From an uncultured Pelagibacteraceae bacterium (lineage in GTDB: Bacteria > Pseudomonadota > Alphaproteobacteria > Pelagibacterales > Pelagibacteraceae): a stretch of 64,000 bases of DNA. Positions 20,644-58,910 of this stretch are shown piece after piece. Within the stretch, counting starts at the first letter, position 1; each line of letters starts with the position of its first letter. The notes under the pieces are model-generated. The model had not been told where the DNA came from. It saw only the letters and a list, made by a program, of their open reading frames with translations, and made no database searches. Position numbers and translations under genes: made by a program. The stretch spans positions 6,039 to 70,038 of the forward strand of contig CACGCL010000004.1 of the NCBI GenBank assembly GCA_902571525.1, written 5' to 3'.

Positions 20644-20683
20644 GAATTTTATTGAATCTATTACAATAGTTTTTATATTATAA

Positions 20684-20945
20684 GTGTTGGTTTTCCAACT
20701 ACGACGATAAACGAATTTCGTAATAAACATTGCGGACGTGGGGGCAGTACCCACCACCTCCACCAAAAACTTACAACTTATGGGGGTGAACTAGGATCGA
20801 CGGATGTCTAAAAGTCTTTCTTTCGTTCGGAATAGTTCCACCGTGACGGGCTATTTATAATTGCAAATAATAAATTTGCACTTGCAGCTTAATTAATTTT
20901 TTAATTAAGTTACGGGGTTTGGGGCACCTGGCAACAGAACGCCCC
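20684..20945 (+). ncRNA. ssrA: Two-piece (circularly permuted) tmRNA
   Basis: Acceptor piece ends CACCTCCACCA at 20765; 16-nt spacer; coding piece starts GGGGGTG at 20782 (G3-U70 pair); tag ANNKFALAA* at 20863-20892; 5' end approximate. Confidence 0.93.
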
Positions 20946-20951
20946 TTTTTT
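20921..20951 (+). terminator. 3' hairpin and U-tract closing ssrA
   Basis: GGGGC...GCCCC followed by T6. Confidence 0.65.
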
Positions 20952-20980
20952 ATTATATAATAAATATATAGTTTAATATT

Positions 20981-21277
20981 ATGTTTTCAGGATTTTTTGC
21001 TTTATTTATAATTTATCTCTTGCATCAATATATAACTGCATGGATTAAATATTATAATAAGACAGATGAAAGATTTGGAAATTCTGTATGGAGATGGTCA
21101 TATGACTACCAGGTAAAAGGAATTAGAGATGTCTCGGACTTAGATGATAAAGAGTTTGTAAGAAAAAGGAGAATTAGAAACAGAACTGTCTCATTTATGT
21201 ATTGGAATTTTTTTATTGGTTTTACTGTTTCTATGTACTTAATAAGTGATGTACTGATGTTTATTCTAAATAATTGA
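20981..21277 (+). CDS. Hypothetical 2-TM membrane protein
   Basis: 98-aa ATG ORF fills the gap; hydrophobic at both ends. Confidence 0.65.
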   Translation: MFSGFFALFIIYLLHQYITAWIKYYNKTDERFGNSVWRWSYDYQVKGIRDVSDLDDKEFVRKRRIRNRTVSFMYWNFFIGFTVSMYLISDVLMFILNN

Positions 21278-49195: not shown

Positions 49196-49256
49196 TAGTT
49201 GTTTTTATTAATGAAAGAATTAGAACAAAAAAGAAACTAGAATATTATTATAGGAA

Positions 49257-49612
49257 TGCCAGATAAACTATAAGCCGGGTTCTGTCATTTAAACTTATCA
49301 TTTATCTAGGCTTTAAGTCTCCTTAAAGCTCAAGCAACCAACCCTGATGACTAACCAAAGACTGTTTTTTGCTATTAGCAATGTCATCTCTACTTGGTCT
49401 TGCTTCCAGTGGGGTTTTCCATGCGCTTATTGTTACCAATAAAGCCGGTGTGCTCTTACCACACCTTTTCACCCTTGCCTTGATAAGGCGGTATATTTTC
49501 TGTGGCACTATCCCTAGGGTTGCCCCCGCCAGGCGTTACCTGGCACTGTGTCTTTGCAAAGCCCGGACTTTCCTCTTTATATTTTATAAAGTGATAAGTC
49601 ATTTATCTGGCA
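49257..49612 (-). ncRNA. rnpB: RNase P RNA (class A)
   Basis: GAGGAAAGTCCGGGC near the 5' end, GACAGAACCCGGCTTA near the 3' end; P1 helix GCCAGATAAA/TTTATCTGGC. Confidence 0.96.
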
Positions 49613-50454: not shown

Positions 50455-51216
50455 ATGATTAAAAGTTTTAAGATTATTATATCTGTTCTCACAATACAAT
50501 TTTTAGTTGTATCAACTTCTTTGGGGGAAGAAAAAGAAGTCAAGGATTGTTTTGAAAAGATAAATAGAGCAACTTTTGCATTTAACATGGCCTTAGATAA
50601 AGTCTTATTTAGACCAGTTGCTTTAGGTTATAGAAAATTGCCCTCGCCTATTAGAACTGGAACTAGTAATGCATTAAATAATTTATCTAATTTAGTCACT
50701 ATTCCAAATAATATATTACAGGGTGATTTAAAAGCAGCAGGCAACAATACGATACGTTTAATTATAAATACTACAATTGGAATAGTTGGAATATTTGATC
50801 CAGCTAACACTTTAGGTTTTGAAAAATTAGAAAAAGAGGACTTTGGTCAAACTTTTGGTGCAATGGGAGTAGGAGAAGGTTGTTACTTAGTTTTGCCAGT
50901 AATTGGTCCATCAACTGTGAGGGATGCTTTTGGCTCTTTGGTTTCAATGAGCGGTGGAGATGCATGGTATAACCTGACTGTCAAAAATGATACACAATAC
51001 TTTAAAGAATCTGATTATTATTATTCTAAATTAACAGAAGGTGTAGACTTCAGAGCAAAAAATTTAGAAACTTTTGATAGTTTAGAAAAAACCTCTGTAG
51101 ATTTTTATGCAACTGTAAGAAGTTTGTATCTCCAAGATCGAGATAGAAAAATAAACAATCTTAAAATTAAGACTGATACTTTAGACGACAGTGACTGGGA
51201 CTCATTAGATAAATAA
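50455..51216 (+). CDS. mlaA: MlaA/VacJ family protein
   Basis: E..NR..F.FN, EDFGQT.G..G...G.YLVLP..GPST.RD. Confidence 0.92.
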   Translation: MIKSFKIIISVLTIQFLVVSTSLGEEKEVKDCFEKINRATFAFNMALDKVLFRPVALGYRKLPSPIRTGTSNALNNLSNLVTIPNNILQGDLKAAGNNTIRLIINTTIGIVGIFDPANTLGFEKLEKEDFGQTFGAMGVGEGCYLVLPVIGPSTVRDAFGSLVSMSGGDAWYNLTVKNDTQYFKESDYYYSKLTEGVDFRAKNLETFDSLEKTSVDFYATVRSLYLQDRDRKINNLKIKTDTLDDSDWDSLDK

Positions 51217-51226
51217 ATAGCGAAAT

Positions 51227-51826
51227 ATGACAAATTTAAGAATAAAAATAATTATCGTAACACTATTTTTTTTTATTAACTTAAATTCAAATTCTATAGC
51301 AAATGTGTCCTCTGATTTTATTAATGATATTACTTCTAAAGCTAGTAATATTTTATCTAGCCAAGATACTGAGGAATTTAAAATCCAAGAACTTATTAAA
51401 ATTGGACAAAACTCAGTTGATATAGATGGGATCGGATTTTATACTTTAGGTAAACATAGAAAAAATTTAAGTGATGATCAAAAAAATGATTTTAAAAAAA
51501 TTTTTAGAGAATATTTCCTTAAAAGTTTTTCAACAAGATTAGTTGAATATAAAGAGGCAAAAATTGTTGTAATTTCTGAAGATGTTAAAAATGAGAAATA
51601 TACAATTGTAAAAAGTAAGCTTTTAGCAACGTCCAATAGACCAGAAGTTGCTATCGACTGGAGGGTTTATACAAAAGATCCATCAAAACCGTTGATAAGA
51701 GACTTGATTATCGAAGGACTTAGTTTAGCTAGAACTCAAAGAGAGGAATTTAATTCTATAATTGTGAATAATGATGGTAATATAATTGCTCTTTTTACTA
51801 GTTTAAAAGAGTTTAATAATAAATAA
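51227..51826 (+). CDS. mlaC: MlaC/Ttg2D phospholipid-binding protein
   Basis: Signal peptide, IDWRV, DLIIEGLSL...QREEF. Confidence 0.9.
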   Translation: MTNLRIKIIIVTLFFFINLNSNSIANVSSDFINDITSKASNILSSQDTEEFKIQELIKIGQNSVDIDGIGFYTLGKHRKNLSDDQKNDFKKIFREYFLKSFSTRLVEYKEAKIVVISEDVKNEKYTIVKSKLLATSNRPEVAIDWRVYTKDPSKPLIRDLIIEGLSLARTQREEFNSIIVNNDGNIIALFTSLKEFNNK

Positions 51827-51861
51827 TCTAAAGAATAATTTTATAAAACTAAAAATAGATT

Positions 51862-51938
51862 TGGTGGGCCCGCCAGGACTCGAACCTGGGACCAATACAT
51901 TATGAGTGTACTGCTCTAACCAACTGAGCTACAGGCCC
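51862..51938 (-). tRNA. tRNA-CAT, most likely Ile2 (lysidine-modified)
   Basis: Cloverleaf GGGCCTGTAG...CTCATAA...TTCGAGT...CCCACCA; resembles Ile2 more than elongator or initiator Met. Confidence 0.88.
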
Positions 51939-51989
51939 TTAATTAATTTTATTTATATCAAAAAAAAAGTTTTTTCAATTTTAAATTTT

Positions 51990-52064
51990 TGGTGGGCCGT
52001 GTTGGTTACGCTCCAACTACCCCTGCAATGTCAATGCAGTACTCTACTATTGAGCTAACGGCCC
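51990..52064 (-). tRNA. tRNA-Val(GAC) with non-canonical D and T loops
   Basis: Perfect acceptor, anticodon (CTGCA/TGCAG, loop TTGACAT) and T stems; encoded CCA. Confidence 0.88.
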
Positions 52065-52100
52065 TAAATTTAAAAATAATCTAAAAATTTTTTATTAAAA

Positions 52101-53360
52101 TTATTTTTTAAAAAAAACATTCGTTTTTTTATTTACAGCATACATTATGGATAAGTTTAGAATAAACAAGCTTATATTGAAATCACTAAAAAAAGAACCT
52201 GAAGGTATAAGTGGTAAAAAATTAGTAATTAAAAAAGTAAAAGCACCAATTTGTAAATAATTTTGAGAGAGAATAATGACTTTTAAGTGTTGAAAAATTA
52301 ACACAAAAAATACAGACAACAATAAAAAGGTTCCAATTAATCCATGCTCAGACAAAAATTCAAAATAAATTTGATGCGGATGTGTAACACAATAATAATT
52401 ATTTTTTTTAACTTTTTCTTTTTCACCGCATGTTTCTATTCTATAATTTTTATTACCCACTCCTAATAAGGGATAATTTTTGAAAACTGCAAAACCTGAC
52501 TTATAAAGTTTTATGTAAATATTATTTTCTAAATTTTGAAATTTTTTTTCTGTAAAAATTTTTGAAAGGATTTGACCATGATATCTATTTTTAAGATAGT
52601 CAGAATTGAGTACTGTTATTATAATTATAATTGGCAAAATAATTAAAAAAAGTAACTTTGTTTTTAAATCAAAAATATCAATTAGGTGTATAAACAATAA
52701 TAAACCAAATACAGCTTTAATAGAATTAGATCTTTCACCTGTAATTATTATTGAAAAGATAAATATTAATATTATGGCCAAAAATATTATTTTTCTAAAT
52801 TTTTCTTTTTTTATAATCTCCAATATTTGTCCCAATATTAAAAATATAAAACCATTTAAAAATGCACCGGCTATTGGTTCATCTTTAAAAAAGCTTACAA
52901 CTCTAAGTCCATGAGGCTGCTCAACACCCTCTAAATAAATTGCTCCCCATCCAAAAATATTAGCTCCGGTAATTCTCTCAAAATTAACATCAAAAACGAA
53001 AATAAGAAAAATTATTGTCCAAAAATAAAATATTTTCAAATTTTTTTTTTTAATATAAAATAAGTAATTAATTGCCAAAAATAATATTATAAACCTGATA
53101 AAACCGAAATTTCTTAATACACTAGTTTCAAAATTTAGTGAGATAAAAGTATTTAATATAAGATATAAATATAAAATTAAAAAAATCTTAATAGTATTAT
53201 TTTCCAGCAAATATTTAAAATGATCGTATTTAAAAAAAAAATATAAATATATAACACCTAATAAAACAATATTAACAATAGAGACTGCCGATCCAATAAT
53301 TATAGATATAGGTAAAAATGTTAATAAAATAAAAAAAATATTATCTTTAATAATTTTCAT
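52101..53360 (-). CDS. waaL: O-antigen ligase family protein
   Basis: Multi-TM; SFF.DE, TGERS, GVG.KNYR, HPHQ.Y.E.LSE.G. Confidence 0.85.
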   Translation of the reverse strand: MKIIKDNIFFILLTFLPISIIIGSAVSIVNIVLLGVIYLYFFFKYDHFKYLLENNTIKIFLILYLYLILNTFISLNFETSVLRNFGFIRFIILFLAINYLFYIKKKNLKIFYFWTIIFLIFVFDVNFERITGANIFGWGAIYLEGVEQPHGLRVVSFFKDEPIAGAFLNGFIFLILGQILEIIKKEKFRKIIFLAIILIFIFSIIITGERSNSIKAVFGLLLFIHLIDIFDLKTKLLFLIILPIIIIITVLNSDYLKNRYHGQILSKIFTEKKFQNLENNIYIKLYKSGFAVFKNYPLLGVGNKNYRIETCGEKEKVKKNNYYCVTHPHQIYFEFLSEHGLIGTFLLLSVFFVLIFQHLKVIILSQNYLQIGAFTFLITNFLPLIPSGSFFSDFNISLFILNLSIMYAVNKKTNVFFKK

Positions 53361-53542
53361 ATCATAAGCATTACAGTTAATTGTACAAAATTATCATAAG
53401 AATGCATTTGCTTGCCCAAAAATTTATTCCCTTTTTTTAAAAAATCTTCAAAACCAATCAAATTATTTTCAATGTGTATGTGCTTCATTACATTTTAAAA
53501 TATAAAACTTTTTCTTATAACTATAAGTAATTTATTGCTCAT
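53361..53542 (-). pseudogene. Heavily degraded 5' remnant, possibly an NAD-dependent epimerase
   Basis: ATG 53542 MSNKLLIVIRKSFIF*, then fragments such as LIGFEDFLKKRE*; several stops. Confidence 0.3.
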
Positions 53543-53549
53543 TTGTAAG

Positions 53550-53890
53550 TTATGTTATTTTGTGAATTTTATTTTTATTATACCAATTTATTGTTTTCAT
53601 GAGAGATTTATCGAAATTACTAAACTTAAAATTTTAATTAATTTTTTTATTTTATCAATATTTTTTAACTTTTCTAATTTTTTAAAGTTTTTATTGTTCT
53701 TTAAATCTATCTTAAAAAATTTGAAATTTTTTTTTCTATTTAGCTCAATTAATCTTTTTTTTTTTAACTTTTTAGAATAATAGCTATCAAGCTTATCTAT
53801 GCCATAAACTTTATTATTATGATTTTTAATTAATTCTAAACATAATCTTGATCCAATAAATCCTGCAGCACCTGTAATTAAAATTTTCAA
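53550..53890 (-). pseudogene. NAD-dependent epimerase with central deletion
   Basis: N-terminus MKILITGAAGFIG..GID...YY...K..R joined to C-terminal NIDKIKKL, then in a shifted frame FDKSLMKTINWYNKNKIHKIT*. Confidence 0.8.
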
Positions 53891-54726
53891 GAAAATAAAA
53901 TTTTTTTAAAGTTTTTTATTGATTTGTACATAAATATAATAATTATCAAGATAATACTTTGGCCATTATTATATCTAATCTTTAGTTCTTCCATAAATAA
54001 TTTTCTAAATTTAATTTTACTAGAGTAGCCTCCTCTCCTAAAATTACCTGTAATTTCATCTTTTTTTGTAGAAGTTCCTTTCATTTTTTTTTTTACAATC
54101 ATTCTATAAAAATAATCATAATCAGCATGGTACTTATAATTAATATTATAAAGACCTATTTTTTTTGCTGAACTTCTTCTTAAAAAAAAACCTGAAGAAT
54201 GGCTAGAGTAAAAACCCCAACTATAATAAATTTTCTCTGGTCTATATCCATAAAGAATACCCCAGTGTTTTTTTACACTTCCAAAAATAAAATCTATTTC
54301 TTTATTGTTTAACTCATTAATATATTTAGCTATAATTTCTAAAGCATTATCTAAATAAGTATCATCAGAATTTACAATTCCTATAAAGTCACCTTTAGCT
54401 AAAGACATACCTTTGTTAAATGCATCATAAATACCTTTATCTTTTTCACTTATCCAATAATCAATTTGACTATCATACCTCTTAATAATGTCTAAAGTTT
54501 TATCTGATGAGCCACCATCAATTATTATATATTCAAAGTTTCGAAATTTTTGATTTAAAACACTTTTAATTGTTTCTTCTAAAAATTTTTCATTGTTATA
54601 AACGACTGTAATTATTGAGAAAAGAGGTTTGAAATTAACAACGGATTCATTATTAAGTCTTTTTCCCCCTTGAATTACGTTTTTTTTTAAAAAATTTCTA
54701 AAATTAAGTTCATTATCCATAATCAA
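53887..54726 (-). CDS. GT2 glycosyltransferase (WcaE-like)
   Basis: FSIITVVYN, IDGGS.D, DKGIYDAFNKG, NSDD; start could be ATG 54720. Confidence 0.9.
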   Translation of the reverse strand: MIMDNELNFRNFLKKNVIQGGKRLNNESVVNFKPLFSIITVVYNNEKFLEETIKSVLNQKFRNFEYIIIDGGSSDKTLDIIKRYDSQIDYWISEKDKGIYDAFNKGMSLAKGDFIGIVNSDDTYLDNALEIIAKYINELNNKEIDFIFGSVKKHWGILYGYRPEKIYYSWGFYSSHSSGFFLRRSSAKKIGLYNINYKYHADYDYFYRMIVKKKMKGTSTKKDEITGNFRRGGYSSKIKFRKLFMEELKIRYNNGQSIILIIIIFMYKSIKNFKKILFS

Positions 54727-55025
54727 AATAATCTTTTATTAAGTAAATTTTTTAAAACATCATCTATACTGTTTTTAGCTTCCCATCCTAAATTTTTTTT
54801 AGGTTTAGGCGATGTTGAAATTTTATCATTAAATAACATTTTTTTGGCAAACCTGATGTTTGATTTGTCTAAAGAATTTAAAAAATTATTGATATGAACT
54901 GGCGCAAAAATTTTCGCATTAATTGAGTTTATAGTATTTAATTCATTTACCAAATTTACAAAATATCTTGATGGCCCTCCATATTTTTGATGTACAAAAA
55001 TTTTGTGATCAAAAAAAATTTTCAT
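54723..55025 (-). pseudogene. Deletion chimera: GT4 N-terminus plus epimerase/dehydratase C-terminus
   Basis: MKIFFDHKIFVHQKYGGPSRYF (GT4 start) fused to KPKKNLGWEAKNSIDD (extended-SDR tail); 100 aa. Confidence 0.65.
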
Positions 55026-56116
55026 AAATTTACAAAAAGATTCTTATATTTCTCTAAATTATTTTTTTTATCAAAGCGCCAAAGATTATTATAAGTTCTT
55101 CTTCGCATTTTATCACACTTAGATTTATTACTCGCATAAAAAAGAATTTTGTTAGCTAATTGTTTGTAATTCCTTATACCAAATAAGAGCCCCCCCTTCC
55201 CATTTAGTAAAATTTCAGATGGACCAGTTTGACATTTAGATGATATTATAAATTTTTTTAGAACTGATGCCTCTAAAAGAACATTAGGTAAACCTTCAAA
55301 TGTAGAGGTTAAAACAAATACATGTGCTGACTTTATATATGGAAAGGGATTTTTTAAAAATTTTAATATTTTTACTTTTTTCTTTAAATCATTTTGATTA
55401 ATAAAATCTTTCATTTTAAGATAATTTTTGCCTCTCCCAATTATAATTAACTTAAAATTAATTTTATTTTTTATTAAATTAACACCCTTTAAAAGAGTAA
55501 AATGGTCTTTTTGCTCTGTAAATCTTCCAACATTAATTAAATTCAAGGAATTCTTTTTATAAAAAGAATTTTTAATTTTTTTTTTTGATTGTTTAATAAT
55601 ATTTGCTTTATCTAGTGGATTATAAATAACGATAGCATTTATATTAAATTTTTTTTTTAATTCAAATTTAAATTCAACACTATTTACAATTGTTTTGTTT
55701 GCAAACTTTAAAAAACTTTTAAATATTTGTTTTTTAAAAAAATTATTTGACCAACCTATGGGTGCTGAATTAGACCTTAAAATTATTTTTATACCTAATA
55801 ATTTACACAAGATTAAGCAGTATATGTTTGCTTGAAAGGAAAAAACGCTAATTCTTCTATCTCTAAGTAAGCAGAAAAACAAAATTATTAAACAAACTAA
55901 ATATTTTATTTTCCTACTAAATATGGACCAAAAATTAAAATATGGAGTTATGATTTTGATCTTTTTGTTAAATCTATTTTTATATTCTTTTGAAGTTGTA
56001 ACAAGATAAACATCTTTAAATTCTTTAGCAAAATAATTTGCAACTATGAATAAATTTTTTTCAACACCACCACCCTCGATTGATGGCATAAAAAATAAAA
56101 TTTTTTTATTAATCAT
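55022..56116 (-). CDS. GT4 glycosyltransferase
   Basis: GGGVEK, NVGR...QK, FEGLPNVLLEA. Confidence 0.92.
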   Translation of the reverse strand: MINKKILFFMPSIEGGGVEKNLFIVANYFAKEFKDVYLVTTSKEYKNRFNKKIKIITPYFNFWSIFSRKIKYLVCLIILFFCLLRDRRISVFSFQANIYCLILCKLLGIKIILRSNSAPIGWSNNFFKKQIFKSFLKFANKTIVNSVEFKFELKKKFNINAIVIYNPLDKANIIKQSKKKIKNSFYKKNSLNLINVGRFTEQKDHFTLLKGVNLIKNKINFKLIIIGRGKNYLKMKDFINQNDLKKKVKILKFLKNPFPYIKSAHVFVLTSTFEGLPNVLLEASVLKKFIISSKCQTGPSEILLNGKGGLLFGIRNYKQLANKILFYASNKSKCDKMRRRTYNNLWRFDKKNNLEKYKNLFVNL

Positions 56117-56161
56117 TAATATTTTATTATTTAAATACTTTATGTATGATAATCAATATAT

Positions 56162-56429
56162 ATGAAATTAATATCAATAATAATTCCTTATTATAAAAAA
56201 AGTAAATATACTCAAAACACTTTAAATTCTATATTTTCTAAATATAAAACGTTCAACAAAAAATATCGGAAAAAAAGATATTCAATCTATAAATAATGCT
56301 ATAGAAAAAATTATTTCAAACATTGAATATAAAAATAAATGTATTCAAAAAGGATTAATTAGATTAAAAGAATTTTCTTGGAAAAAAAGCGCAACAGAAA
56401 CTTTAATTGTATATAAAAAAATACTTTAA
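56162..56429 (+). pseudogene. Deletion chimera: GT2 N-terminus plus GT4 C-terminus
   Basis: 56162-56296 MKLISIIIPYYKKSKY..TLNSI...*; in another frame 56277-56429 DIQSINNAIEKII...KEFSWKKSATETLIVYKKIL*; not in the ORF track. Confidence 0.75.
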
Positions 56430-56432
56430 AAT

Positions 56433-57248
56433 TTAATTAAATTTTTCAATCCATTCTACATCATTATTCAATGTATAACTTCCATAACAAAAAGCTCTTT
56501 CTGCAAGCTCATTATGAATAGTCTCAGCCTTATGAAATGAGACTGGATTTGATTGAAATATTATTAATTTACCAGCCTCGGGTTTAATTTTATGTTTTAG
56601 TAAAACATCTTTCATATCTGGCACCACTATTTTATAATTGCTTAATTTATTCTTATTTTTATAAATTTCCAAGCAACCACCATCATTTTCATTTAGGTCA
56701 TTTAAATATAATAAAAAAACTATAATTCTTGAATTTTTGTCTCTATGGATTGGCGTAACATAACCTTTTTTAGCATAACAAAATATTAAATCAAAGAAAT
56801 AAAAATTAAATAAATTTTGAAACCAGTTAGGTAATTTTTTATATATAAAACTATTCAACCGTTGAAAAAAATTGTGTTTATGAATGCCTCTTTTATACTC
56901 ATAAAAATCTGGTTTAAATTTTTTTGGTAAATTTTTAATTTCATATTTTGTTGATGATTGAAGTGGTATATTTTTTAATTGTTTAATAAAATATTCAAAA
57001 GTACTCTTATTATTTAAAAAGTTATATATGTCATTAAAAACTTTATTTTTTTTTATAAAATCATTAAAATTTGTTGAACCTTTCCTAATATTTTTTCTAC
57101 CACCATCTTTCATTTCGTCAAAAATAGATTTCTTTAAAATATCAGTTGCATTCTTGGACTCTTCAATATCAAGAAAATTAGTAAATTCTAATATAGGGTA
57201 AGGATCATTGTAAACCTTAACATTTGATAATCTTTTTTTTGATGTCAT
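56433..57248 (-). CDS. 2OG-Fe(II) oxygenase
   Basis: HRD...LLYLN...GG.LE, SFH, terminal R motif. Confidence 0.85.
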   Translation of the reverse strand: MTSKKRLSNVKVYNDPYPILEFTNFLDIEESKNATDILKKSIFDEMKDGGRKNIRKGSTNFNDFIKKNKVFNDIYNFLNNKSTFEYFIKQLKNIPLQSSTKYEIKNLPKKFKPDFYEYKRGIHKHNFFQRLNSFIYKKLPNWFQNLFNFYFFDLIFCYAKKGYVTPIHRDKNSRIIVFLLYLNDLNENDGGCLEIYKNKNKLSNYKIVVPDMKDVLLKHKIKPEAGKLIIFQSNPVSFHKAETIHNELAERAFCYGSYTLNNDVEWIEKFN

Positions 57249-57266
57249 ATCTTACCTTGTAATAAA

Positions 57267-57950
57267 TTAAATTTTTTTATAAAAGATTTTATATTTTATT
57301 TTTTTAAATAATTTGATAATATTATAAATAAGAAAGTTATAAAGCCAAACTTTTTTTTTACTTACTTTGCTATCTTTCACTTTTTTTAAGATACATAAAC
57401 CATTTTCATTTCCATTATATTGAAAATTAATAGAGTCAAAGTTTGAATAATAAAATTCTTCTACAGCTTCCCTAGACAAATCAGAAACAATTGAATTAGA
57501 TAAACTTTTGATTTTTCTATATGGATAAGCGGAGGTATCATCTACAAAAATAAAACCTCCTACATTAATATTTTCGAAGTATGATTCTAATAATAATTTA
57601 ATATGATTTGGTTCGTGATAGCTATCTATATATAATAAATCTATTCCTTTTTCAATTATTTCTGGAAATAATTCAAAAATTTTTTTTTTATTTATGTCAT
57701 TAACTTGAGAAAAAAACCAGTTAGGATGACTTAAAATGTTTGAACAATCCTTGATATCAAAAGAAAAAACTTTACATCCAACCTTATCGGACGCTAATAG
57801 AAACGCTTTAGTGGAAGTTCCCCTGTCAACACCAAATTCAACAACTGTATTAAACTTATGATTCACAATAGCATAGTGCATAATTGAAAGGTGATTTTCT
57901 TTATCTGTTTCAATAATTCTAGATATTTGTTGATGTAAATCGTTATTCAT
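57267..57950 (-). CDS. Class I SAM methyltransferase (Methyltransf_24-like)
   Basis: VEFGVDRGTST, IDSYH, GGFIFVDD. Confidence 0.85.
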   Translation of the reverse strand: MNNDLHQQISRIIETDKENHLSIMHYAIVNHKFNTVVEFGVDRGTSTKAFLLASDKVGCKVFSFDIKDCSNILSHPNWFFSQVNDINKKKIFELFPEIIEKGIDLLYIDSYHEPNHIKLLLESYFENINVGGFIFVDDTSAYPYRKIKSLSNSIVSDLSREAVEEFYYSNFDSINFQYNGNENGLCILKKVKDSKVSKKKVWLYNFLIYNIIKLFKKIKYKIFYKKI

Positions 57951-58570
57951 TTTGAAAGTAATTTCCTAACATAATTTTTAATTGAGTGGGTCCTAGAAAA
58001 TATTTTTTTGGACTCTTCAAGTGTTTCATCATTATTTTTTATAATTTTTGCCATACCTGATCCAACAAAGGAAAAAAAAACATTTATATTTTTTTGGTTA
58101 GAAATTATTATTTCATTAATCATCTCAAACGTTTCTCTATTATTGATCTCGCTATTAAAATGATTCCTATAATTATTTTTTGAATACGGAATCCAGCAAA
58201 CATCATCAACAAACATATAGCCACCGATCTTTAAATTTTCATAGTAATGATAGATTATTTTTTTTACATGTTTAGCATTATGAAAAGAGTCAATTAAAAT
58301 TGCGTCAAATTTTTCAGGAATATTTTTATGTATATACTCAAAATTATCGTCTCTGGATTGAATAAATTTCCATTTATCATTATTTGAAACTTTAGAGCAA
58401 TCATCAATGTCAACAGAATAAATCTTTCCATTATTTTTGTCACATATTTCGATAAATCTTTTTGTGGAAATTCCCTCTCTAACACCAAACTCTAAAAATT
58501 TAGGATTTTTAATATTTGCTAGATCAGAAAACATAAAGTCATCAAGTTTTTTTGAATATTCATCAGACAT
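57947..58570 (-). CDS. Class I SAM methyltransferase (Methyltransf_24-like), paralog
   Basis: LEFGVREGIST, IDSFH, GGYMFVDD. Confidence 0.85.
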   Translation of the reverse strand: MSDEYSKKLDDFMFSDLANIKNPKFLEFGVREGISTKRFIEICDKNNGKIYSVDIDDCSKVSNNDKWKFIQSRDDNFEYIHKNIPEKFDAILIDSFHNAKHVKKIIYHYYENLKIGGYMFVDDVCWIPYSKNNYRNHFNSEINNRETFEMINEIIISNQKNINVFFSFVGSGMAKIIKNNDETLEESKKIFSRTHSIKNYVRKLLSK

Positions 58571-58910
58571 TTGTATTTAAAATGTTGATTAATTGATTGT
58601 GGTGTCTAAAGGTTGTAAATTGCCTTACTTTTTTCTTTGAATTAATTTTAAAATTTTTCAAATTATTTTCATTTAGTTTTAAAAAATAATTAAATTTTTC
58701 GTCTAAAATTTTTGACGTTGTTAAATCAACTATCTTAATATTATGTATATTCATATTTTTTTTAAAAAAATTCCATTCACCAGCTACATTTAAAATGATT
58801 GGCTCAAAATCATTTTTGGAGTATTTTTTTAAATTTTCAGCAGAATTTATCATAGACCTTATAGTTGCTACTTTTGATATAAATGGAGACCAGTAATATA
58901 CAAATTTCAT
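58563..58910 (-). pseudogene. Glycosyltransferase (probably GT4) with in-frame central deletion
   Basis: GT-B-like N-terminus YYWSPFISKVATI..INSA joined directly to a C-terminal-type helix KINSKKKVRQFT..HHNQL..IL; only 115 aa, no donor-binding motif. Confidence 0.6.

What the first reader, a model, noticed from the sequence alone, without database searches (positions are those of the whole stretch)
53361..58910. Series of 'hollowed-out' genes that keep only their 5' and 3' ends in the surface-glycan island
Seen: at least four short ORFs or remnants (53550-53890, 54723-55025, 56162-56429, 58563-58910) each join a recognisable enzyme N-terminus directly to an enzyme C-terminus, with the catalytic middle missing. 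They are interleaved with intact genes. Three still overlap the start or stop of a neighbour (TTGA 53887-90, ATGA 55022-25, 58563-70). Ordinary decay would more often give scattered stops or one-sided truncation. Inference: the ends are kept either to preserve translational coupling and promoters, or as homology anchors so glycan cassettes can be exchanged or restored by recombination with no integrase. The latter would be a serotype-switching route I do not know to be described.
Basis: partly seen in the sequence, partly recalled or inferred. Interest (0 to 1): 0.85.

Follow-up and report, generated by a model that had tools for sequence, protein, structure and literature searches.

The report
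Deletion scars in SAR11 O-chain island
The short 'hollow' genes are real: they are the leftovers of two internal deletions and one inversion that knocked sugar-building genes out of a marine SAR11 bacterium's surface-glycan cluster, likely ordinary gene loss that changed its coat and not a cassette-swapping system.

Summary
All four remnants exist and are not amplification or assembly chimeras. Their fused proteins occur as 5 (R1), 2 (R2) and 6 (R4) alleles in independent assemblies, and metagenome contigs bridge R2, R3 and R4. Only R1 (epimerase) and R4 (GT4) join both ends of one gene. R2 and R3 are cross-gene chimeras at the two ends of an inversion: R2's start and R3's end come from one 369-aa GT4. 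Intact parent alleles exist, and contigs with the un-inverted layout occur in the same seawater run. The start/stop overlaps are ancestral: 127 of 231 intact neighbour pairs overlap. In such operons 93% of simulated neighbour-sparing deletions leave both ends. The stubs evolve without protein constraint (pN/pS 0.89 against 0.11) and match their parents no better than neighbouring genes do. I found no att repeats, nearby recombinase or alternative centres. The anchor/serotype-switch idea is unsupported; frame retention for translational coupling is plausible but unproven. This is deletion decay in a Pelagibacterales O-chain cluster, like the Salmonella wzy remnants, but unusually dense and recent. 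The scan has noted deletion-fused remnants on other DNA, none here.

The parts
51862..52064 (-). tRNA-Met and tRNA-Val(GAC) at the left edge of the low-GC glycan island
   Evidence: ARAGORN; Rfam; GC falls from about 0.28-0.30 to 0.21
52101..53360 (-). O-antigen ligase / Wzy_C family gene, intact, last gene of the leftward unit
   Evidence: PF04932 E 3e-17; 39-member cluster; pN/pS 0.16 against G151
53361..53549 (-). R0: old, decayed remnant with only the N-terminus (residues 4-36 of about 274) of an NAD-dependent epimerase-like gene; stops and frameshifts; also a remnant in G151
   Evidence: E 2.6e-5 against the G153 gene; 17% diverged from G151, like synonymous sites
53550..53890 (-). R1: NAD-dependent sugar epimerase, residues 1-81 joined to the last ~34 residues (centre of about 211 aa deleted); junction near 53648-53653; 1-nt frameshift near 53631 in this genome
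   Evidence: Pfam Epimerase/GDP_Man_Dehyd N-terminal match; five alleles, three in frame; intact 3' part in G151 and 324-aa homolog in G153; T inserted behind 53631 in contigs of three runs
53887..54726 (-). Intact GT2 glycosyltransferase (277-279 aa); TGA overlaps R1's TTG
   Evidence: PF00535; pN/pS 0.14 against G151
54723..55025 (-). R2: in-frame 100-aa chimera, GT4b residues 1-74 (55025-54804) fused to the last 26 residues of a GMD-like dehydratase (54803-54723); left junction of the inversion, at an imperfect K-[LI]-K-K-x-L microhomology
   Evidence: 69-70 of 74 identical to P0125/P0169; 22-23 of 26 to P0165/P0167/P0168; bridged by contigs in runs X1, X2, X3; two alleles
55022..56116 (-). 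Intact GT4a (364 aa), carried inside the inverted segment
   Evidence: PF00534; opposite orientation relative to GMD/GT2 in G151, G153 and contig 6 of run X1
54804..56254 (.). Inverted segment (GT4b 5' stub, GT4a, divergent intergenic spacer, GT2b 5' stub); right end approximate (56226-56273)
   Evidence: X1 record 6: bases 1-274 on 54528-54801 (+), bases 1341-1482 on 56085-56226 (-), 1066 other bases between; G151 layout predicts about 1067
56162..56429 (+). R3: GT2b N-terminus (about 56162-56254) joined out of frame to the last ~51 residues of GT4b (56274-56429); scar over the right inversion junction, convergent with the 2OG gene
   Evidence: 44 of 51 identical to the C-terminus of P0125/P0169; same junction in L033 and in contigs of X2, X3, X6; GT2b was already a stub in G151
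56433..58570 (-). Three intact genes downstream of R4: two Methyltransf_24 genes and a 2OG-Fe(II) oxygenase
   Evidence: alleles
58563..58910 (-). R4: in-frame 115-aa remnant of a 380-aa GT4 (GT4c), residues 1-72 joined to 336-380 at a shared Glu-Lys (58695-58700); 265 codons including the Glycos_transf_1 domain deleted; stop overlaps the next start
   Evidence: 68 of 72 and 42 of 45 identical to P0170; six alleles, all 115 aa with one junction; bridged in X1, X2, X3, X6; 1 synonymous and 5 non-synonymous changes against L033

Best explanation
The remnants are scars of two internal deletions (R1, R4) and one inversion with DNA lost at its ends (R2, R3), which removed four sugar-building genes from one haplotype of a SAR11 O-chain cluster; short repeats likely guided the breaks, and the ends likely survived only because the neighbouring genes overlap them. 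Shown: intact parent alleles with the same ends exist; the un-inverted layout exists in G151, G153 and a seawater contig; junctions are shared by all hollow alleles; stubs drift without protein constraint. Inferred: breaks arose by RecA-independent slippage or illegitimate recombination at 6-15 nt microhomologies (E-K at R4, K-I at R1, K-[LI]-K-K-x-L at R2); the inversion joined GT4b and the GMD-like gene, and a later deletion of about 1.8 kb erased its other junction (R3), so it can no longer flip back; the losses shortened or changed the glycan and were fixed either under phage pressure or because losing one transferase made the others useless.
For: Parents: P0043/P0170 for R4, P0125/P0169 for R2-N and R3-C, P0165/P0167/P0168 and G151 for R2-C, G151/G153 for R1. 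Inversion: X1 record 6 with 1066 bases between the two matches, against about 1067 expected from G151; among 80 loci fetched with the GT4a alignment the commonest upstream neighbour is a divergent GT2 (27 loci). Overlap is the default (127 of 231) and 93% of neighbour-sparing deletions leave both ends (simulation). Stubs R3N, R3C and R4 against L033: 2 synonymous, 8 non-synonymous, pN/pS 0.89; seven intact genes 29 and 14, 0.11; Fisher p 0.005 on 2/8 against 35/15. R1 alleles carry a frameshift (2 of 5) or Gly7Asp in the NAD-binding motif (2 of 5). Older remnants are not two-ended: R0 is N-only and the G151 GT2b stub is joined to an internal piece, residues 47-92 of 272. An independent hollow epimerase (P0295) turned up among the best 150 hits.
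Against: The stubs are shorter than one uniform deletion predicts: only about 11% of simulated deletions remove 65% or more of a gene, yet R1 and R4 both do (0.12 and 0.09). Two-ended scars were 1 of 10 remnants in the 93 other distinct loci, so this density is atypical, although C-termini are harder to detect. All 8 alleles of R2 and R4 keep their frame. All-site divergence of the stubs (10 in 597 nt, 1.7%) is somewhat below the synonymous rate of neighbours (2.8%), so mild constraint is not excluded. L033 does not cover R1 or R2, so the neutrality test omits them; R1-N against G151 gives pN/pS 0.21, like an intact gene, as expected if the deletion is younger than that split. Microhomologies at R4 and R2 are read from parent proteins, and R1's N side from distant homologs, not from parent DNA. 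The selective cause is untested.
Confidence: 0.7

Rival explanations
1. R2 and R4 are kept by selection as in-frame ribosome bridges: their amino acids do not matter, but an open frame from the upstream stop (or promoter) to the overlapping downstream start preserves translational coupling and avoids polarity on GT2, the ligase and the methyltransferases.
For: R2 overlaps GT4a's stop and ends 2 nt before or overlapping GT2's start; R4's stop overlaps the next start. 2 of 2 R2 and 6 of 6 R4 alleles are open, whereas R1 (followed by the decayed R0) is frameshifted in 2 of 5 and R3 (a dead end, convergent) is out of frame.
Against: In-frame share of short repeats is 0.40 at 6 nt and 0.52-0.58 at 12 nt, so 3 of 4 in frame is not unusual. 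Only about a dozen changes are seen among R4 alleles, too few to expect a stop. The ligase persists behind the stop-riddled R0 in both haplotypes. No expression data.
Confidence: 0.2
2. The ends are retained as homology anchors so that cells can regain or swap the missing centre by recombination with co-occurring intact haplotypes, giving integrase-free glycotype switching.
For: Filled alleles with 93-95% identical ends exist, and contigs of the un-inverted and probably filled haplotype occur in run X1 beside the hollow one. Reversible loss and regain of an O-antigen gene is known in Salmonella (PMC12074656, abstract), and replacement islands exchange by homologous recombination (PMC4033161, abstract).
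Against: Stubs are no closer to filled alleles (86-95%) than intact neighbours are (88.5-95.6%) and drift at pN/pS 0.89. Kilobases of intact flanking genes offer better homology. Both filled alleles of each gene have the same centre. R2 and R3 are inversion junctions between different genes. No long direct or inverted repeats at the junctions; one tyrosine recombinase on another contig and no resolvase in a 78% complete assembly. G151's mosaic boundary is inside intact GT4a (83% falling to 72%). Whole-cluster swapping is reported as rare in this order (PMC11898729, section 6).
Confidence: 0.06
3. The short ORFs are new functional small proteins, for example dominant-negative or scaffolding fragments of glycosyltransferases.
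For: R4 and R2 are open in all alleles seen.
Against: Only one close cluster at 63-202 aa; pN/pS 0.89; no Pfam or NCBIfam family matches R2 or R4; the sugar-donor-binding domain is deleted; R1 alleles break the frame or the glycine-rich motif.
Confidence: 0.03
4. The junctions are amplification (MDA) or assembly chimeras.
For: An inversion with deletion is the typical MDA chimera (recalled), and the genome is a fragmented 31-contig assembly. One of the runs laid could be the source sample (warning).
Against: The same junctions occur in diverged alleles from NCBI, JGI, ENA, Logan and Tara collections, in L033 at 99.2% identity, and in contigs of four runs from two studies dated 2014 and 2025.
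Confidence: 0.01

Closest known systems
Pelagibacterales O-chain biosynthetic cluster (OBC), Ib.4-type location (PMC11898729; sections 5 and 6 and term passages read)
   Same: Low-GC glycan cluster ending at tRNA-Val and tRNA-Met beside cell-wall genes (ftsZ, ampD-like, mlaA/mlaC-like); glycosyltransferases, sugar enzymes and O-antigen ligase; long vertical persistence of a type.
   Different: The paper's main text has 0 occurrences of 'deletion', 'truncated', 'pseudogene' or 'inversion'; it compares gene content and does not describe scars. Its supplements were not read. The rRNA end of the island is not on this contig.
wzy remnants in Salmonella group B1 and D1 O-antigen clusters (PMC3715488; passages read)
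   Same: A superseded gene between two needed genes is degraded by serial deletions; intact parent and remnant forms coexist as different serotypes.
   Different: There an IS element is involved and one gene is lost; here four genes are lost, with an inversion and no IS seen, and two scars stay in frame.
Reversible wzy excision in Salmonella Typhimurium DT8/DT30 (PMC12074656; abstract and outline read)
   Different: It depends on perfect attL/attR direct repeats, recurs and was shown to revert. Here junctions share only 6-15 nt, each deletion appears to be a single inherited event, and reversion is not shown.
Replacement flexible genomic islands exchanged by homologous recombination (PMC4033161; abstract and outline read)
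   Same: Surface-glycan island, integrase-free exchange, phage as the proposed driver; G151 is mosaic relative to the window.
   Different: Exchange uses conserved flanking genes; the boundary seen here is in an intact gene, not at a stub.

Membership tests
Pelagibacterales OBC, Ib.4-type | One end at tRNA-Val and tRNA-Met next to peptidoglycan/cell-division genes | tested here: met
   definition in PMC11898729 section 5
Pelagibacterales OBC, Ib.4-type | GC near 24% against about 29% for the genome | tested here: met
   0.205-0.26 over 52-64 kb; larger contigs 0.27-0.31
Pelagibacterales OBC, Ib.4-type | Glycosyltransferases, nucleotide-sugar enzymes, ligase/polymerase | tested here: met
Pelagibacterales OBC, Ib.4-type | Other end at the 16S-ITS-23S operon | not testable with these tools
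   contig C4 ends 252 bases after the window; L033 extends it without reaching rRNA
Deletion-derived pseudogene remnants | Full-length parent allele with the same ends | tested here: met
Deletion-derived pseudogene remnants | Catalytic region missing | tested here: met
   parents carry PF00534 and GT4/GMD matches; R2 and R4 match no family
Deletion-derived pseudogene remnants | No purifying selection on the protein | tested here: met
   pN/pS 0.89 against 0.11 for R3 and R4; R1 frameshift and Gly7Asp alleles; R2 not tested at DNA level
Deletion-derived pseudogene remnants | Short microhomology at the junction | tested here: inconclusive
   shared dipeptides/motifs in parent proteins and the 3' side in G151 DNA; parent DNA for the 5' sides not obtained
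att-flanked reversible excision (Salmonella wzy type) | Perfect direct repeats flanking the excised DNA | tested here: not met
   parents share only a dipeptide at R4; only AT-rich imperfect repeats in the region
att-flanked reversible excision (Salmonella wzy type) | Reversion to the intact state | not testable with these tools
   needs long-read haplotypes or co-culture
Phase-variable invertible segment | Inverted repeats at both ends of the segment | tested here: not met
   no arm pair at both junctions among the 25 longest of 119 pairs listed
Phase-variable invertible segment | Dedicated invertase nearby | tested here: not met
   one PF00589 match on contig C2, no PF00239 match, assembly 78% complete
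Phase-variable invertible segment | Both orientations with otherwise identical sequence | tested here: not met
   the other orientation differs by 6% and has 1066 extra bases

The most novel reading that the evidence does not exclude
SAR11 edits its O-chain by hollowing genes in place, and the terminal stubs act as landing pads through which the co-occurring intact haplotype can refill the centre, giving a reversible, integrase-free glycotype switch under phage pressure. Intact and hollow haplotypes do co-occur and share 93-95% identical ends, so refilling of R1 and R4 is mechanically possible; nothing here shows that it happens or that stubs are kept for it.
Probability: 0.06. Interest if true: 0.75.

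Novelty: new member of a known kind. Interest (0 to 1): 0.3.

Why it matters
It is a resolved example of how an O-chain type in SAR11 changes from within: parent and reduced haplotypes are both recoverable, four genes were lost in datable steps, and the reduced form persists at about 1% divergence in runs eleven years apart. The OBC paper suggests that the phage arms race acts on single genes rather than by swapping whole clusters; this pair of haplotypes makes that testable. It also shows that a streamlined genome carries pseudogene scars for long periods and that such short fused ORFs should not be annotated as new small proteins. The mechanism itself is ordinary.

Tried and rejected
MDA or assembly chimera: rejected. 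Four genes each hollowed in place: rejected for R2 and R3. My interim view that R2 and R3 came from two separate GT4 genes with no inversion: rejected by P0125 and X1 record 6. In-frame bias as proof of selection: not significant. Promoter scan: 47 sites against 52.5 +/- 9.1 in shuffles, uninformative. Repeat searches gave only AT-rich chance matches. Searches for DNA of the fully filled right-hand haplotype failed: 151 relatives, 401 genus genomes, 400 genomes around G151, viral contigs twice, JGI metagenomes gave only L033 and one weak hit. Putative N-termini in the L060 and L019 remnants were not confirmed (E 0.1-0.7), so they are not counted as two-ended. The codon comparison of R1's C-part was misaligned and is not used. 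160 short ORFs in gaps across G000 were compared only with island proteins; only R1, R2 and R4 matched, which does not test core genes. Contig depths (about 41 against 10 in X1) are not cell shares and are not used as evidence. Literature searches for this pattern found no description: 0 papers; no relevant title in the listings; the library lacks most subscription papers. No structure or complex prediction was run.


Full report
Setting. The window is G000:C4:6039-70038 of a 924-kb, 31-contig assembly, 78% complete. Loci fetched with its GT4a protein carry Pelagibacteraceae or Pelagibacter titles almost throughout. After ftsZ, an ampD-like amidase and mlaA/mlaC-like genes come tRNA-Met and tRNA-Val, then a stretch of 21-26% GC with an O-antigen ligase, glycosyltransferases, methyltransferases and sugar enzymes. 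This fits the relocated O-chain cluster described for genomospecies Ib.4 (PMC11898729, section 5 read).

The observation. Translation and BLAST against relatives confirm four joined fragments. R4 matches a 380-aa GT4 at residues 1-72 and 336-380. R1 matches an epimerase at both ends. The overlaps are as stated.

They are real. Exact look-up found R4 in a cluster of 6 alleles, all 115 aa; R2 in a cluster of 2; R1 in a cluster of 5, three of them in-frame 113-aa ORFs. The metagenome locus L033 is 99.2% identical from 56088 onward and has the R3 and R4 junctions. Six of 24 listed runs, from two studies, hold half or more of the words. In the four runs laid, listed contigs bridge R2 (X1, X2, X3), R3 (X2, X3, X6) and R4 (all four); none listed bridges R1, but 5887 rows were not shown.

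What they are. R4's parent is P0043/P0170: 68 of 72 and 42 of 45 residues are identical to P0170, and the two pieces overlap at Glu-Lys. R1's parent has an intact 3' part in G151 and a 324-aa homolog in G153; the pieces probably overlap at Lys-Ile. R2 and R3 are different. One 369-aa protein (P0125/P0169) matches both the first 74 residues of R2 and the last 51 of R3, which lie on opposite strands, while R2's tail belongs to a 316-aa GMD-like dehydratase. Contig 6 of run X1 matches 54528-54801 forward and 56085-56226 in reverse with 1066 other bases between. G151 has that layout on two overlapping contigs: GT4a diverging from a GT2b stub, then an intact GMD-like gene, GT2 and epimerase; its spacing gives about 1067 bases (my arithmetic). 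G153 has the long form with a whole GT2b and further genes. So the window's haplotype carries a derived inversion whose left junction is R2, at an imperfect K-[LI]-K-K-x-L repeat, and whose right junction was erased by a further deletion (R3). No intact GT4b or GT4c was found elsewhere in G000, which is incomplete. That P0125 lies beside the 2OG gene and P0170 beside the methyltransferase is inferred only from equal contig lengths.

Why both ends remain. Among intact co-directional glycan genes less than 90 nt apart in the survey loci, 127 of 231 pairs overlap and 185 of 231 lie within 10 nt. A deletion that spares both neighbours must therefore start and end inside the dispensable gene; in a simple simulation 93% of these leave at least 10 codons at each end. 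Against this, only 11% remove 65% or more of the gene, and both R1 and R4 do, which suggests a preference for large deletions or more than one step. Three of four junctions were in frame, but 40% of repeats of 6 nt or more and 52-58% of those of 12 nt or more are in frame in these genes. The pattern that R2 and R4, which feed intact coupled genes, stay open while R1 and R3 do not is suggestive only.

Are the ends conserved? Against L033 the R3 and R4 stubs show 2 synonymous and 8 non-synonymous changes (pN/pS 0.89); seven intact neighbours show 29 and 14 (0.11); Fisher p 0.005 with part of an eighth gene added. All-site divergence of 1.7% is a little under the synonymous 2.8%, so mild constraint cannot be excluded. 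R1 and R2 are outside L033; R1-N against G151 gives 0.21, dominated by time before the deletion. Stubs match filled alleles at 86-95%, neighbours match their alleles at 88.5-95.6%. The old remnant R0 is N-only, full of stops and 17% diverged from its G151 copy. In G151 the GT2b stub is joined to an internal piece of another GT2. G151's similarity to the window drops from 83% to 72% inside intact GT4a. No long repeats mark the junctions; the assembly has one tyrosine recombinase on another contig and no resolvase.

How common. I surveyed 99 loci (95 distinct, including the window and L033; 1.64 Mb). Of 281 internal gaps, 247 of at most 1.5 kb were searched with libraries of protein ends: at E<=1e-3, 41 had an N-terminal and 12 a C-terminal hit, against 1 and 1 in reversed controls. 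By hand I dropped start-extension artefacts (families f12, f34, f63, f75), frameshifted but complete genes (in L016, L022, L025, L028/L058, L042, L064, L098), probable intact singletons (L024, L063, L070, L098) and hits weaker than 1e-3. Ten remnants remained in the 93 other loci: five N-only (L020, L060, L067, L083, L098), three C-only (L025, L060, L098), one pair of C-ends on opposite strands (L092) and one N plus C-proximal piece (L036). Remnants are thus a regular feature of these islands, mostly one-sided and decayed; four young two-ended scars in 5.5 kb is unusual. C-ends are harder to detect, so two-ended cases may be undercounted. One unrelated hollow epimerase, P0295, appeared among 150 listed hits.

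Mechanism. Most likely, short-repeat-mediated deletions and one inversion removed an epimerase, a GMD-like enzyme and two GT4s. The inversion also put GT2, R1 and the ligase downstream of GT4a instead of the GT2b stub (from the sequence; promoters not located). The result would be a simpler glycan; phage escape or loss of purpose after a first knock-out are the inferred drivers. High pN/pS in glycosyltransferase genes and mostly gene-overlapping deletions are reported for lake bacterioplankton (PMC9426551, passages).

Comparison and novelty. It works like the serial-deletion wzy remnants of Salmonella (PMC3715488, passages). It is not a member of att-flanked reversible excision (PMC12074656, abstract) or of phase-variable inversion. 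That paper and a 2026 Arctic preprint (10.64898/2026.10.07.757358, term passages only) do not mention deletions, pseudogenes or inversions in their main texts; supplements were not read. Other searches found no account of this pattern in SAR11. Earlier notes of this scan describe similar deletion-fused remnants in other genomes and nothing on this stretch; I did not check them.

Verdict. Real, partly misdescribed, and best read as recent deletion and inversion scars. New member of a known kind; interest 0.3.

Noticed in passing
window 20648-20983 (+): Two-piece (permuted) alphaproteobacterial tmRNA with tag peptide ANNKFALAA.
   Followed up: no
window 49255-49610 (-): RNase P class A RNA between mraZ-like and ampD-like genes; the short ORFs listed there are likely spurious.
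   Followed up: no
L033, window-equivalent 64491-65245 (-), just beyond the window: Two short ORFs (95 and 84 aa), the first with a P-loop start; G151 has a 253-aa or longer homolog at the same place (L166), so this may be another broken gene in the same haplotype.
   Followed up: no
G000 contig C22 (4.7 kb): Holds an intact GT2, MraY-like gene and membrane protein in the order that G153 has downstream of GT2b, so the module missing behind the GT2b stub may survive elsewhere in this genome; C15 holds a canonical GMD-like pair.
   Followed up: partly
L092:1059-1411: Two C-terminal remnants facing each other on opposite strands between intact genes: a probable second case of inversion plus deletion in a SAR11 glycan island.
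   Followed up: partly
L036:13527-14218: Decayed remnant joining a GT4d N-terminus to a GT4a-type C-proximal piece in one frame.
   Followed up: partly
L016 (G013): Several frameshifted glycan genes in a closed genome; homopolymer sequencing errors are as likely as real inactivation.
   Followed up: no
window 55022-56116; alleles P0016 and P0017: In one 7.7-kb contig GT4a is split into 181 and 174 aa at a poly-A run: a further loss in the hollow haplotype or a sequencing error.
   Followed up: no
window 50455-53360: The ligase cluster has 39 members while the adjacent core mlaA/mlaC-like proteins are singletons at 90% identity, yet G151 matches across the tRNAs at about 90%; the island edge seems to be shared more widely than its flank.
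   Followed up: no
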